DNA of 64,000 nucleotides from positions 5,176 through 69,175 of the forward strand of contig JBAYVZ010000005.1 of the NCBI GenBank assembly GCA_041674285.1. Reading direction: 5' to 3'. This document shows, piece by piece, positions 36,457 through 39,068 of this stretch. Under the pieces are notes generated by a model. That model ran no database searches and had not been told where the DNA came from. It was given only the letters and a program-made list of their open reading frames with translations. Made by a program: the position numbers and the translations under genes. This DNA comes from Minisyncoccota bacterium (GTDB lineage: Bacteria > Patescibacteriota > Minisyncoccia > Phycocordibacterales > UBA9973). The first letter of the stretch is position 1. Each line of letters opens with the position of its first letter.

Positions 36457-37110
36457 ATGGCAATCAATGCAGAAAAATCTCAAGAATTTGTACCAATAAA
36501 AGAAATCCGTGATGGAGTGATCATCCTGAAAGATGGGGGATATCGGGCAATACTGATAGCTTCTTCTATAAACCTATCTCTAAAATCTAGCGATGAGCAG
36601 GTAGCAATAATAAATCAATTCCAAACATTCCTAAATAGTCTGGATTTTTCCGTGGAAATAGTAGTGCAGTCTCGAAGATTAGATATCCGTCCGTATTTAA
36701 TGACACTAGAAGACAGGATGAAGAACCAAGTAGAGCCACTACTTAAGATACAGACCAAGGAATACATAGACTTCATAAGATCTTTTACTGACGAGGTAAA
36801 CATAATGACAAAGTCATTCTTTATCGTAATCCCATACAGCTCCACAATAATAAAACCTACAGAGGGAATATTTGATAAACTAACTGGCAGTAGAGTAGGT
36901 ATGTCTGCTCCTGCAGAGCTTTCCAAAAAAGAAACAGAGATGGCTGAATTCGAAGAGACCAGATCTCAGCTAGATCAGCGTGTGAGCGTAGTAGCATCAG
37001 GACTTTCAGGAATGGGAATTAGAACTTCTCAATTAAAAACAGAGGAAGTAGTAGAATTATTTTATAAAACATTTAATCCTGGCGATATAAGCCAAGGAAT
37101 GAAATTATAA
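36457..37110 (+). CDS. VirB4 N-terminal domain encoded as a separate ORF
   Basis: VPIKEIRDGVIILKDGGYRAILIASSINLSLKSSDEQVAIINQFQTFLNSLDFSVEIVVQSRR follows the CagE/TrbE/VirB4 N-terminal pattern. Ends in TAA two nt before copy A7. Confidence 0.6.
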   Translation: MAINAEKSQEFVPIKEIRDGVIILKDGGYRAILIASSINLSLKSSDEQVAIINQFQTFLNSLDFSVEIVVQSRRLDIRPYLMTLEDRMKNQVEPLLKIQTKEYIDFIRSFTDEVNIMTKSFFIVIPYSSTIIKPTEGIFDKLTGSRVGMSAPAELSKKETEMAEFEETRSQLDQRVSVVASGLSGMGIRTSQLKTEEVVELFYKTFNPGDISQGMKL

Positions 37111-37111
37111 T

Positions 37112-37235
37112 ATGGGTCCCGTTAGAAGCCGCGATCACGATTTATAAATAAAAAATATGAAAAATAATTATCGAAACATTAAAAATATAACTGAGCAAAG
37201 TCGCGAAACGATCGCGATCTGCTTCTAACGGGATG
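37112..37235 (+). repeat. A-element copy A7 (TIR variant CCCGTTAGAAGC / GCTTCTAACGGG) between the two virB4 cistrons
   Basis: ATGGG-TCCCGTTAGAAGC ... TCGCGA-aac-GATCGCGA ... GCTTCTAACGGG-ATGGG. Direct repeat ATGGG at both ends. Confidence 0.85.
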
Positions 37236-39068
37236 GGAATTTTTTCATCATTATTTGGGGGAGGCAACAATAACCAGCAAAACAAGCAGGGTAGTGGTGT
37301 CATGCCTATACTACCAAAGGAGATTTACCGTGCGGCGACACTAGAGCTCCAAGACGTGATAGCCCCTTCGGCACTACAAATAACACCAAAATCTCTAAAC
37401 CTAGGGGATAAGATTGCTCGTACTTTCTTTGTCATATCATACCCTAGATATCTAGTAGACAATTGGTTTTCTCCTATAATCAACCTAGACAAGGTCTTTG
37501 ATGTATCTATAAATATACACCCAATAGAGACTACAGAAATCCTACGTACATTTGAGAAAAAGGTGGCTGAAGTACAGAGTCAGGTAGCTATACGCGAATC
37601 AAAGGGGCTAGTTCGCGACCCAATACTAGATACAGCATACCAAGACCTAGAAGGTCTTCGTGACAACTTACTGCAAGCCCAAGAAAAGATGTTTAATGTG
37701 GGTCTATATATCACAATATACGCAGACAACGAGAATGAACTCTTTAAAACAGAAAATGAGATAAAATCTATTCTCGAATCTAAGCTCATATATCTAAAGC
37801 CAGCCCTATTCCAGCAGGAAGAGGGGTTCAAGAGTGTCATACCTACAGGTACAGATATGCTAGAGATACACCAAAAGCTTAATACAGAGCCATTGTCTTC
37901 AATCTTTCCTTTTGTATCTTTTGACCTGACATCAGATCAGGGTATCCTATATGGAGTAAATAGGCACAATTCAAGTCTTATTATATTCGACCGTTTTTCT
38001 CTACCAAACTACAATTCGATTACATTTGCTACATCTGGTGCAGGTAAATCATATGCGACAAAGCTAGAAATTATCCGAACACTGATGTTCGACACAGAAG
38101 TGATAGTCATCGACCCTGAGCGTGAATACGAGTACCTAGCAGAAGCAGTAGGGGGTAGGTATTTCAATATTGCACTATCTAGCGACCACCACATAAACCC
38201 ATTTGACTTGCCGATACCATCCGCAGACGAGACTGGCGGAGATGTGTTGCGTTCAAATACTATAAATCTAGTAGGTTTATTCCGTATCATGTTAGGAGGA
38301 CTCACACCAGAAGAAGATTCCATAATAGACAGAGCTATTACCGAAACATACGCACTAAAAGACATCACACCTGAATCAGATTTTAGAAACATAGAGCCAC
38401 CACTACTATCAGACTTTGAAATGGTGCTCTCTGGTATGGAGGGTAGCGAGTCTATCATACAAAGACTAGCAAAATACACTCGTGGGTCATGGGCTTCATT
38501 CCTAAACAAGCCATCGAACGTAGATATAAACAGAAAATTTGTAGTATTTTCTGTGCGTGATATGGAAGACGAACTCAAACCAGTGGCTATGTATATAGTC
38601 ACACACTACATCTGGAATGCCGTTCGCAAGAATATAAAAAAGAGACTCCTAGTGGTGGATGAGGCCTGGTGGATGATGAAATCAGAAGATACTGCTTCAT
38701 TCCTATACTCTATCGCCAAGCGTGGACGTAAATACTACCTAGGACTCGCGACAATCACTCAAGACGTAGGAGACTTTATGAAGAGTCCATATGGCGTACC
38801 AATAGTGACCAACTCATCTATACAACTACTATTAAAGCAATCTCCATCTACTGTAGATGTGCTCCAGAAAACATTCAACCTAACTGACGAGGAAAAATAT
38901 CTACTACTAGAAGCAAATGTGGGGGAGGGTATATTCTTTGCTGGCTTAAAACACGTAGCAGTAAAAACAATCGCCTCATATACAGAAGACCAGATAATCA
39001 CTTCAGACCCATCCCAGATATTGGCCATCAAAAAAGCCAAAGATGATGCAAATAATGCACAACAATAA
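37233..39068 (+). CDS. virB4: VirB4/TraC/CagE-family type IV secretion ATPase (C-terminal ATPase portion)
   Basis: ATSGAGKSYATK Walker A, VIVIDPEREYEYL, and RLLVVDEAWWMM (the VirB4 DEAW Walker B). Confidence 0.85.
   Translation: MGIFSSLFGGGNNNQQNKQGSGVMPILPKEIYRAATLELQDVIAPSALQITPKSLNLGDKIARTFFVISYPRYLVDNWFSPIINLDKVFDVSINIHPIETTEILRTFEKKVAEVQSQVAIRESKGLVRDPILDTAYQDLEGLRDNLLQAQEKMFNVGLYITIYADNENELFKTENEIKSILESKLIYLKPALFQQEEGFKSVIPTGTDMLEIHQKLNTEPLSSIFPFVSFDLTSDQGILYGVNRHNSSLIIFDRFSLPNYNSITFATSGAGKSYATKLEIIRTLMFDTEVIVIDPEREYEYLAEAVGGRYFNIALSSDHHINPFDLPIPSADETGGDVLRSNTINLVGLFRIMLGGLTPEEDSIIDRAITETYALKDITPESDFRNIEPPLLSDFEMVLSGMEGSESIIQRLAKYTRGSWASFLNKPSNVDINRKFVVFSVRDMEDELKPVAMYIVTHYIWNAVRKNIKKRLLVVDEAWWMMKSEDTASFLYSIAKRGRKYYLGLATITQDVGDFMKSPYGVPIVTNSSIQLLLKQSPSTVDVLQKTFNLTDEEKYLLLEANVGEGIFFAGLKHVAVKTIASYTEDQIITSDPSQILAIKKAKDDANNAQQ

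What the first reader, a model, noticed from the sequence alone, without database searches (positions are those of the whole stretch)
36457..39068. virB4 is split into an N-domain cistron and an ATPase cistron exactly at the A-element copy A7
ORF 36457-37110 carries the CagE/TrbE/VirB4 N-terminal domain pattern (DGVIILKDGGYRAILIASSINLSLKSSDEQ ... LNSLDFSVEIVVQSRR). ORF 37233-39068 carries Walker A, the VirB4 VIDPEREY block and the DEAW Walker B.

The two ORFs are separated by copy A7 (37112-37235). The upstream ORF stops at TAA two nt before the element. The ATPase ORF starts at the ATG that forms the element's 3' terminus. The element is flanked by ATGGG on both sides.

Either an insertion bisected an ancestral single virB4 and supplied a usable restart, or this lineage natively encodes VirB4 in two pieces with the element as the intercistronic module.
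Basis: partly seen in the sequence, partly recalled or inferred. Interest (0 to 1): 0.75.

Follow-up and report, generated by a model that had tools for sequence, protein, structure and literature searches.

The report
Start-codon mobile element beside split VirB4
The two-piece VirB4 secretion ATPase is an old, already described gene arrangement, and the repeat between the pieces is a recent insertion of a small mobile element that, unusually, lands on gene start codons and rebuilds them.

Summary
ORF 36457-37110 is a VirB4 N-terminal-type protein, ORF 37233-39068 is the VirB4 ATPase, and a 121-nt repeat flanked by ATGGG lies between them.

Relatives with about 91%, 80% and 74% nucleotide identity lack the element. 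They still have the same 217-aa and 609-611-aa genes, separated by TAA-T-ATG. Of 150 representative homologues, 148 are stand-alone. The same pair is known as TrsD/TrsE in pSK41, and TrsD next to VirB4 is published as widespread in Patescibacteria.

The element is a MITE-like insertion with a 13-bp covarying terminal stem, no ORF and a 4-5-bp target duplication (ATGGG here). Its unusual feature is its position. All 8 window copies sit on a start codon in the gene's orientation. So do 85% of 133 copies from more than 100 MAGs, mostly Patescibacteria with a few labelled Omnitrophota or Planctomycetota. The duplication regenerates the ATG.

In 40 of 109 copies the reading frame opened by the left ATG stays open to a stop at or next to the real ATG. 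This suggests translational coupling. No transposase, Rfam family or paper describing the element was found.

The parts
35995..36408 (+). PrgI/VirB3-like T4SS gene, immediately upstream of the pair
   Evidence: Pfam PrgI, E 2.6e-9. The gene order is the same in relatives and in Firmicutes plasmids.
36457..37110 (+). Stand-alone VirB4 N-terminal-type protein (TrsD-like, precomputed Pfam label PF26593 TraC-like), 217 aa
   Evidence: More than 7,900 homologues were found, and the best 120 are 212-221 aa. Of 150 representatives, 148 lack an ATPase part. It aligns to residues 1-214 of a fused 797-aa VirB4. Foldseek top hits are TrwK/VirB4, from a low-confidence model.
37112..37116 (+). Left copy of the target-site duplication, ATGGG
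   Evidence: In blastn against L007 and L001, the same 5 nt of the empty site align to both 37112-37116 and 37233-37237 (sequences).
37117..37233 (+). Element copy A7: 13-nt arms at 37117-37129 and 37221-37233, an A/T-rich interior, and a GC-rich inner helix segment at 37201-37219
   Evidence: Sequence. Fold of -35 kcal/mol, z = -3.5. Stem covariation. Absent from relatives.
37112..37147 (+). Short uORF opened by the left ATG (MGPVRSRDHDL, then stop)
   Evidence: Read directly from the sequence. Family-wide uORF analysis.
37233..39068 (+). VirB4 ATPase (TrsE-like), 611 aa; its ATGGG is the right copy of the duplication
   Evidence: Pfam P-loop_TraG, AAA_10 and DUF87. PDB 4AG5 VirB4 C-terminal domain, E 2.5e-38, and TrwK residues 446-735. 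pSK41 TrsE residues 36-616, E 4e-28. The N-terminus MGIFSSLFGG is conserved in element-free relatives.
34703..34822 (+). Element copy A6, at the start codon of the 385-aa T4SS gene; duplication is ATGGA
   Evidence: The site is empty in L007.
1780..1897 (+). Element copy A1, at the start codon of a NYN-domain gene
7936..8055 (+). Element copy A2, at the start codon of a phosphoglucose isomerase-like gene
11618..11736 (+). Element copy A3; duplication is ATGGA
23270..23389 (+). Element copy A5, at the start codon of a UvrD-type helicase gene
43583..43700 (-). Element copy A8 with variant arms (TCCCGTATGAAAT), at the start codon of the R3H/Jag gene
   Evidence: Shared with relative L131.
44807..44924 (-). 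Element copy A9, at the start codon of a 68-aa ORF lying between the genes with Ribonuclease_P (rnpA-type) and 60KD_IMP (yidC-type) Pfam hits
   Evidence: Shared with L131.
15595..15663 (-). Degenerate remnant: left arm only, preceded by ACTTG, in front of a TrmB-like regulator gene

Best explanation
Shown:
- The window comes from a Patescibacteria (Paceibacteria-type) chromosome.
- Its T4SS operon, next to dnaA, natively encodes a 217-aa VirB4 N-terminal-type protein (TrsD-like) and a 611-aa VirB4 ATPase (TrsE-like).
- In element-free relatives these are two adjacent genes whose stop and start are one base apart (TAA-T-ATG).
- In this lineage a 117-nt non-coding element inserted at the start codon of the ATPase gene.
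- The insertion duplicated ATGGG, so an intact ATG was rebuilt at the element's 3' edge.
- The element belongs to a family defined by TCCCG...CGGGA termini, an exactly 13-bp covarying terminal stem, an A/T-rich interior and an inner GC-rich helix next to the 3' arm.
- Family members sit on start codons, in the gene's orientation, with a 4-5-bp duplication ATGNN.

Inferred, with about 0.35 confidence:
- The insertion is tolerated because the native initiation signals now drive the left ATG.
- Ribosomes either translate a short element-encoded uORF and re-initiate at the real ATG, or the terminal stem loops the insert out so the real ATG stays next to the upstream signals.
- At this site, ribosomes finishing the TrsD-like ORF would re-start at the left ATG 1 nt downstream.
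For: The split is ancestral.
- Empty sites with identical gene boundaries occur in L007, L001/L003 and L004.
- More than 7,900 homologues were found, and the listed ones are about 217 aa. Of 150 representatives, 148 are stand-alone and 2 are fused.
- The PrgI, N-domain protein, DUF87 ATPase order recurs in Geobacillus and Clostridium plasmids and as trsC-trsD-trsE in pSK41.
- PMC12102498 reports 2,272 TrsD homologues in Patescibacteria, 1,664 of them next to VirB4.

The element is mobile.
- The empty-site ATGGG in L007 and L001, and likewise ATGGA at A6, aligns to both flanks of the filled site.
- The flanking 5-mers are identical in 99 of 143 copies, with the last two bases varying from site to site. 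Agreement falls to background one base further out.
- Stacks of 2-3 copies occur on one start codon.

The stem is under selection.
- Positions 11-13 are 97-98% paired with three or more pair types each.
- In the count of structure pairs, 0 of 500 shuffles reached the observed values.

The association with start codons is real.
- All 8 window copies are on start codons, although the window has 42 ATG starts and 180 other intergenic ATGs.
- Elsewhere, 113 of 133 terminal ATGs open ORFs of at least 100 codons, against 15% of random ATGs.

Translation through the element.
- The frame of the left ATG is open across the interior in 40 of 109 copies, against 12 and 9 in the other two frames.
- It ends at a TAA at -7 (29 copies) or a TGA overlapping the real ATG (11 copies).
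- In-frame read-through was never seen, 0 of 22.

Promoter context. In this genome a TATAAT-like box lies 6-7 nt upstream of many start codons, and no Shine-Dalgarno motif is evident by eye. The same box precedes the left ATG in 19 of 109 copies.
Against: - No transposase or longer element with the same ends was found in about 1 Mb of fetched loci, so the mobilising activity is unknown.
- Nothing explains mechanistically how start-codon ATGs are told apart from other ATGs. Selection rather than targeting cannot be excluded.
- All window copies, including A7, have short uORFs that end 66-91 nt before the real ATG. The coupling model therefore does not obviously apply at this site.
- A6 and the copy at the same site in L004 are 88% identical, while closer relatives are empty. 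Precise loss therefore occurs, or one start codon is hit repeatedly. This weakens simple 'recent insertion' dating for that copy.
- The direct profile comparison of ORF1 with pSK41 TrsD was weak: probability 2.8%, E 0.016.
Confidence: 0.85

Rival explanations
1. An insertion of the element bisected an ancestral single virB4 gene and supplied a restart codon.
For: The element lies exactly at the junction and its 3' end forms the ATG. Fused 797-898-aa homologues exist.
Against: Removing the element and one ATGGG leaves TAA-T-ATG with the two ORFs in different frames. Relatives without the element have the same 217-aa and 609-611-aa genes. The two-gene form predominates among Patescibacteria homologues (148 of 150 representatives) and also occurs in Firmicutes plasmids.
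Confidence: 0.02
2. The element is the native intercistronic module of the split virB4, for example a coupling or processing signal that belongs to this gene pair.
For: It forms a stable stem that brings the upstream stop and the downstream ATG together.
Against: It is absent from this junction in every relative examined. None of the other element copies retrieved from the scanned genomes precedes a VirB4-like ORF. The other 7 window copies sit in front of other genes, most of them unrelated to the T4SS.
Confidence: 0.03
3. The element is mainly a cis-acting RNA module that is positively selected at start codons, and its mobility is secondary. Possible roles are a 5' stem-loop that stabilises or processes leaderless mRNAs, an RNase III site, or a portable promoter and leader.
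For: The stem covaries. Orientation relative to the gene is fixed: the inner helix is on the gene side in 105 copies against 23. The uORF frame is open more often than expected. A6 and its L004 counterpart are 88% identical, against about 74% for the flanking genes.
Against: The interior sequence is not conserved. There is no Rfam match. No convincing sigma-70-type promoter lies at a fixed position. Close relatives express the same genes without the element.
Confidence: 0.3
4. Insertion is specific only for the sequence ATGNN, and purifying selection alone produces the start-codon pattern.
For: Stacked copies show that an ATGNN next to another element is also hit. About 15% of copies do not precede a long ORF.
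Against: The window has 180 non-start intergenic ATGs and 42 ATG starts, yet 8 of 8 copies are on starts in one orientation. The naive probability is 0.19^8, about 2e-6.
Confidence: 0.2

Closest known systems
TrsD/TrsE (TraD/TraE) pair of staphylococcal conjugative plasmids pGO1/pSK41, and the TrsD-VirB4 pair reported across Patescibacteria (PMC12102498)
   Same: The gene order is VirB3/PrgI-like, then a protein of about 220 aa, then a DUF87/VirB4 ATPase of about 610-670 aa. ORF2 aligns end to end with TrsE. The small protein is related to the VirB4 N-terminus. The T4SS lies near the replication origin, as that paper notes.
   Different: My direct profile match of ORF1 to pSK41 TrsD was weak. 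In this genome the pair is separated by a 121-nt insertion, whereas in relatives the two genes abut.
Bacterial MITEs (Correia/NEMIS, ERIC, RUP, Rickettsia palindromic elements)
   Same: About 105-135 nt long, with terminal inverted repeats, a target-site duplication, no ORF, many copies per genome and insertion polymorphism between relatives. Like Correia elements, it may affect transcripts. This comparison is from my own knowledge of those families.
   Different: Insertion is on start codons, with the duplication rebuilding the ATG, and in a fixed orientation to the gene. The stem covaries between copies while only 5 nt at each tip are invariant. The same ends occur across several phyla. No parent IS is known.
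REPIN/RAYT and IS200/IS605-derived palindromic elements
   Same: Hairpin-forming, non-autonomous, and long-lived within lineages. A trans-acting single-copy enzyme would fit the lack of a nearby transposase.
   Different: Those elements make no target duplication and have subterminal hairpins rather than terminal inverted repeats. Here a 4-5-bp duplication whose last two bases vary by site is clear.
Structure-bridged or coupled translation starts (phage T4 gene 38 split ribosome-binding site; ATGA-type termination-reinitiation; T4 gene 60 bypass)
   Same: A stable stem brings the sequences on either side of the insert together. In many copies a uORF ends at or overlapping the real ATG.
   Different: This is an analogy from my own knowledge only. 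No expression data exist, and the window copies have short uORFs.

Membership tests
VirB4/TrsE-type T4SS ATPase (ORF2) | P-loop ATPase domain with Walker A and Walker B motifs, homologous to the VirB4 C-terminal domain | tested here: met
   Pfam P-loop_TraG at 88 bits, plus AAA_10 and DUF87. PDB 4AG5 at E 2.5e-38, with GAGKS and DEAW aligned.
VirB4/TrsE-type T4SS ATPase (ORF2) | N-terminal VirB4 domain on the same polypeptide, as in TrwK or VirB4 of about 800 aa | tested here: not met
   By the offset of the aligned segment, ORF2 residue 1 corresponds to about residue 185 of TrwK. The missing part is encoded by ORF1. pSK41 TrsE is truncated in the same way.
TrsD/TraD-like stand-alone VirB4 N-terminal homologue (ORF1) | Protein of about 220 aa encoded between a VirB3/PrgI-like gene and virB4 | tested here: met
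TrsD/TraD-like stand-alone VirB4 N-terminal homologue (ORF1) | Homology to the N-terminal part of full-length VirB4 | tested here: met
   38% identity over residues 1-214 of a fused 797-aa homologue, E 3e-45. Foldseek top hits are TrwK, probability 0.85-0.99, from a model with pLDDT 64.
TrsD/TraD-like stand-alone VirB4 N-terminal homologue (ORF1) | Sequence match to TrsD itself or to the CONJScan TrsD profile | tested here: inconclusive
   hhalign against pSK41 TrsD gave probability 2.8% and E 0.016 over 46 columns. The CONJScan profile is not available here. PMC12102498 reports such hits for the Patescibacteria proteins.
MITE (non-autonomous DNA transposon) | Terminal inverted repeats | tested here: met
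   13 bp, 96-100% paired.
MITE (non-autonomous DNA transposon) | Target-site duplication, and empty sites in relatives | tested here: met
   Flanking 5-mers are identical in 99 of 143 copies. Two empty/filled pairs were found.
MITE (non-autonomous DNA transposon) | Small, non-coding and multi-copy | tested here: met
   105-135 nt long. Only short variable uORFs. 8 copies in 64 kb.
MITE (non-autonomous DNA transposon) | A cognate autonomous IS with the same ends | tested here: inconclusive
   No pair of ends 0.15-6 kb apart enclosing an ORF was found in 128 loci. No match in IMG/VR. Whole genomes could not be scanned.
REPIN/RAYT or IS200/IS605-derived element | Insertion without target duplication, with subterminal hairpins instead of terminal repeats | tested here: not met
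   A duplication whose last two bases vary by site is present. The inverted repeat is terminal.
Any described RNA family (Rfam 15) | Covariance-model match | tested here: not met
   No hit at gathering thresholds in the whole window. No hit on the elements at E up to 5.

The most novel reading that the evidence does not exclude
The element family is a previously undescribed class of bacterial mobile DNA. It targets translation start codons, which in these genomes with promoter boxes 6-7 nt upstream of the ATG may coincide with transcription start sites. It inserts in a fixed orientation and rebuilds the ATG through its target duplication. It stays harmless through an RNA-level trick, either a uORF that ends at the real ATG or a terminal stem that loops the insert out. 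It is spread across Patescibacteria and into Omnitrophota and Planctomycetota by an unknown trans-acting enzyme.
Probability: 0.35. Interest if true: 0.8.

Novelty: new variant of a known kind. Interest (0 to 1): 0.55.

Why it matters
For the T4SS, the result removes a false lead. The split VirB4 is the normal TrsD/VirB4 architecture of monoderm-type and Patescibacteria systems, not a product of the repeat.

The useful by-product is base-pair-resolution proof that the repeat family is mobile. That proof consists of empty and filled alleles and a 5-bp duplication.

It also shows that the family has a property I found in no paper or RNA database: it sits on start codons and regenerates them.

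If targeting rather than selection explains this, it would be a new way for mobile DNA to find safe sites in very compact genomes. It would also give a natural system for studying translation initiation without Shine-Dalgarno sequences, and translational re-initiation, in uncultured bacteria.

Tried and rejected
- Local Pfam and PDB sequence searches with ORF1, alone and as a 13-sequence profile, gave nothing. Homology to VirB4 was obtained instead through a fused homologue and a fold search.
- The ORF1 profile against pSK41 TrsD was too weak to use.
- Rfam gave no family at gathering thresholds or at E up to 5. There are no tRNAs in the window.
- The sigma-70 and terminator scan of 34600-37400 found no more sites than shuffles do, and nothing at a fixed place in the elements. 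I did not adopt the internal-promoter model.
- A search for long elements with the same ends, as candidate autonomous copies, found only three variants of 190-281 nt.
- The IMG/VR scan for the element gave 0 hits.
- No other copy in the sampled genomes precedes a VirB4-like gene.
- Literature searches for MITEs or repeats at start codons in Patescibacteria/CPR, and for the arm sequence itself, found nothing relevant.
- Integron attC was considered and rejected on the sequence. The GTTAGAG...CTCTAAC order is the reverse of the RYYYAAC...GTTRRRY order of attC sites, which I recall from my own knowledge.
- A ribozyme or intron was considered and rejected, because the interior is not conserved and the uORF signal argues for translation through the element.
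Full report
**1. What is at the site**

ORF 36457-37110 (217 aa) ends with TAA at 37108-37110. One T follows, then ATGGG (37112-37116). Next comes TCCCGTTAGAAGC...GCTTCTAACGGG (37117-37232). Then ATGGG (37233-37237) opens ORF 37233-39068, 611 aa.

ORF2 is a VirB4-type ATPase:
- It hits Pfam P-loop_TraG, AAA_10 and DUF87.
- Its residues 235-590 match the VirB4 C-terminal domain 4AG5 at E 2.5e-38, with GAGKS, VIDPEREY and DEAW aligned.
- Its residues 261-557 match TrwK residues 446-735.

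PrgI (VirB3-like) lies just upstream, and a VanY/pilin-domain protein lies downstream. The locus sits next to jag, yidC, rnpA, dnaA and dnaN.

**2. Is ORF1 a VirB4 N-terminal piece?**

The local Pfam copy and PDB sequence searches gave nothing. The large protein search returned more than 7,900 homologues. The 120 best are 212-221 aa and carry the precomputed label PF26593 'TraC-like'.

In the exhaustive representative search, 148 of 150 best clusters are stand-alone proteins with no ATPase part. Two are fused proteins of 797 and 898 aa.

On the 797-aa protein, from Colwellbacteria MAGs:
- ORF1 residues 1-213 align to residues 1-214, at 38% identity and E 3e-45.
- ORF2 residues 39-604 align to residues 230-796, at 56% identity.

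The two ORFs therefore tile a full-length protein, with only a variable linker at the joint. An AlphaFold model of ORF1 (pLDDT 64) has TrwK/VirB4 chains as its top Foldseek hits, at probability 0.85-0.99.

**3. Did the element cause the split?**

No.
- Contigs encoding ORF1 homologues of 98%, 94% and 82% identity lack the element. These are L007, L001/L002/L003 and L004, at about 91%, 80% and 74% nucleotide identity to the window.
- They carry the same two genes, 217 aa plus 611 or 609 aa (the downstream gene runs off the contig in L002, L003 and L007). The junctions read ...AAATTATAATATGGGAAT... in L001, L003 and L007, or ...CTATAAATTATGTCT... in L004.
- In blastn, the five bases ATGGG of L007 and L001 align to both 37112-37116 and 37233-37237 of the window.
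- Removing the element and one ATGGG leaves TAA-T-ATG in two different frames, not one ORF.

The same three-gene order occurs in Geobacillus and Clostridium perfringens plasmids: PrgI, then an N-domain protein, then a DUF87 ATPase. It also occurs as trsC-trsD-trsE in pSK41. ORF2 aligns with TrsE over its whole length.

A 2025 survey (PMC12102498) describes TrsD as a remote homologue of the VirB4 N-terminus. It calls TrsD the most abundant T4SS component in Patescibacteria, usually next to VirB4, with the system often near the replication origin. My own profile comparison of ORF1 with pSK41 TrsD was weak. The TrsD label therefore rests on synteny, on the fused homologue and on that paper.

**4. 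What the element is**

The window holds 8 full copies and one remnant. These are mostly Patescibacteria of many orders. There are also five contigs labelled Omnitrophota and three labelled Planctomycetota, seven of them from contigs of 32-210 kb, and two short contigs labelled Gammaproteobacteria. None was found in IMG/VR.

Across 143 copies:
- The five bases left of TCCC match the five bases that begin with the terminal ATG in 80-87% of copies at each position. All five are identical in 99 copies.
- Agreement drops to 17-24% one base further out.
- The fourth and fifth bases differ from site to site (AA, GA, AG, CG, CA and others) but match left and right.

This is a target-site duplication of 5 bp. 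It could be read as 4 bp if the terminal T·A pair is counted as part of the element. Three copies have GTG on the left and ATG on the right, which fits the 4-bp reading.

Copy A6 has the same empty/filled relationship with L007, with ATGGA duplicated.

The terminal stem is exactly 13 bp. Positions 11-13, which my search pattern did not constrain, are 97-98% paired, each with three or more pair types, and pairing stops at position 14. On a 30-sequence alignment, no shuffle out of 500 reached the observed pairing or covariation, and slid controls fell to 33-49% paired.

Subfamilies with other arms keep the TCCCG/CGGGA tips and the ATGNN duplication. These arms are TCCCGTATGAAAT, TCCCGTAGTAG and TCCCGCACCTTTAGAG. 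The interior is A/T-rich and not conserved. A GC-richer helix lies next to the 3' arm in 105 copies, against 23 the other way. There is no Rfam match. No longer element with the same ends was found.

**5. The start-codon association**

All 8 window copies end in the ATG of a gene, in that gene's orientation. The genes are:
- a NYN-domain gene, a phosphoglucose isomerase-like gene and an unknown gene;
- a UvrD-type helicase gene and a 385-aa T4SS gene;
- the VirB4 ATPase gene, jag, and a 68-aa ORF between the rnpA-type and yidC-type genes.

The window contains 42 ATG start codons and 180 other intergenic ATGs. Elsewhere, 113 of 133 terminal ATGs open ORFs of at least 100 codons, against 15% of random ATGs in the same loci.

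A relaxed search that did not require ATG found 10 copies with non-canonical arms. Nine of them have an ATG at one end, and seven show an exactly matching ATGNN duplication. Two or three copies can be stacked on one start codon, each separated by the same ATGAA.

**6. How the insert may be tolerated (inference)**

In this genome many genes have a TATAAT-like box 6-7 nt before the ATG. I saw no obvious Shine-Dalgarno sequence by eye, though no motif scan was run. This is the layout expected for leaderless mRNAs. A strong box at that spacing precedes the left ATG in 19 of 109 copies. After insertion, the native signals therefore serve the left ATG.

The reading frame opened by the left ATG is free of stops across the interior in 40 of 109 copies, against 12 and 9 for the other two frames. 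The excess holds in both GC-rich and GC-poor subsets. Those uORFs end at a TAA 7 nt before the real ATG (29 copies) or at a TGA overlapping it (11 copies). The 22 copies in which the two ATGs are in frame are never open. This points to translation through the element followed by re-initiation.

The window copies, however, have short uORFs. A7 encodes MGPVRSRDHDL and stops 86 nt before the real ATG. For these copies, looping-out by the terminal stem (-29 to -40 kcal/mol, z = -3 to -5.3), RNA processing or an internal promoter all remain open. A simple promoter scan gave no support for an internal promoter.

**7. Age and spread**

- A7 and A6 are absent from L007, which is about 91% identical.
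- A8 and A9 are shared with L131, which is 91-95% identical.
- A7 is only 64-70% identical to the other window copies but 82% identical to a copy in another MAG.
- A6 is 88% identical to the copy at the same start codon in L004, where the flanking genes are about 74% identical, even though closer relatives are empty there. This needs either precise loss or repeated hits on the same start codon.

**8. Verdict**

The split is real, old and already described. The element did not cause it and is not specific to it. The new information is the element's mode of insertion.

Noticed in passing
window-wide, e.g. 36440-36459, 31597-31615, 26770-26788, 45500-45518, 53081-53099: Many genes have a TATAAT-like box 6-7 nt upstream of the start codon. 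I saw no Shine-Dalgarno motif by eye. This is the layout expected for leaderless mRNAs.
   Followed up: partly
L022 5898-6281; L086 5472-5713; L091 6578-6911: Two or three element copies are stacked on or near one start codon. In L022 and L086 consecutive copies are separated only by the repeated ATGAA; in L091 about 90 nt lie between the two copies. Pairwise identities within the stacks are 68%, 80% and 98%.
   Followed up: partly
window 34703-34822 and L004 4254-4372: The copy at the orthologous start codon of a relative with about 74% nucleotide identity is 88% identical to A6 and shares the rare TAATGGG arm variant. Closer relatives have an empty site there.
   Followed up: partly
window 44925-44929 (minus strand), window 15659-15663 (minus strand), and L030, L035, L063, L092, L127: A minority of copies from different genomes have ACTTG instead of ATGNN directly left of TCCCG. 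This is unexplained.
   Followed up: no
L017, L036, L066, L111, L121 (Omnitrophota); L040, L087, L106 (Planctomycetota): Elements with the same 10-nt ends, mostly shorter (107-108 nt in six of the eight, 113 and 135-137 nt in the others), occur in MAG contigs from other phyla, most of them 32-210 kb long. They again sit on ATGNN-flanked ORF starts. I did not verify the binning.
   Followed up: no
P0261/P0271/P0272 (Colwellbacteria) and P0257: Rare fused full-length VirB4 proteins of 797-898 aa occur within the otherwise two-gene Patescibacteria clade. I did not resolve whether fusion or split is the derived state there.
   Followed up: partly
window 44543-44599, 51068-51124, 51137-51193: A second repeat family of 57 nt has a conserved CCACCCCTCAAGAGGGGAAT hairpin-like core.
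   Followed up: no
window 3313-3446 and 7771-7904: Two stretches of about 130 nt are 82-94% identical. One lies upstream of the epimerase gene at 3439 and the other just left of element copy A2 (families D5 and D7).
   Followed up: no
window 21824-22003: Three tandem 60-nt repeats lie inside the 999-aa ORF 19883-22882 (family D3).
   Followed up: no
window 26000-47000: The whole T4SS cluster lies directly next to jag-yidC-rnpA and dnaA-dnaN. This matches the origin-proximal location reported in PMC12102498.
   Followed up: partly
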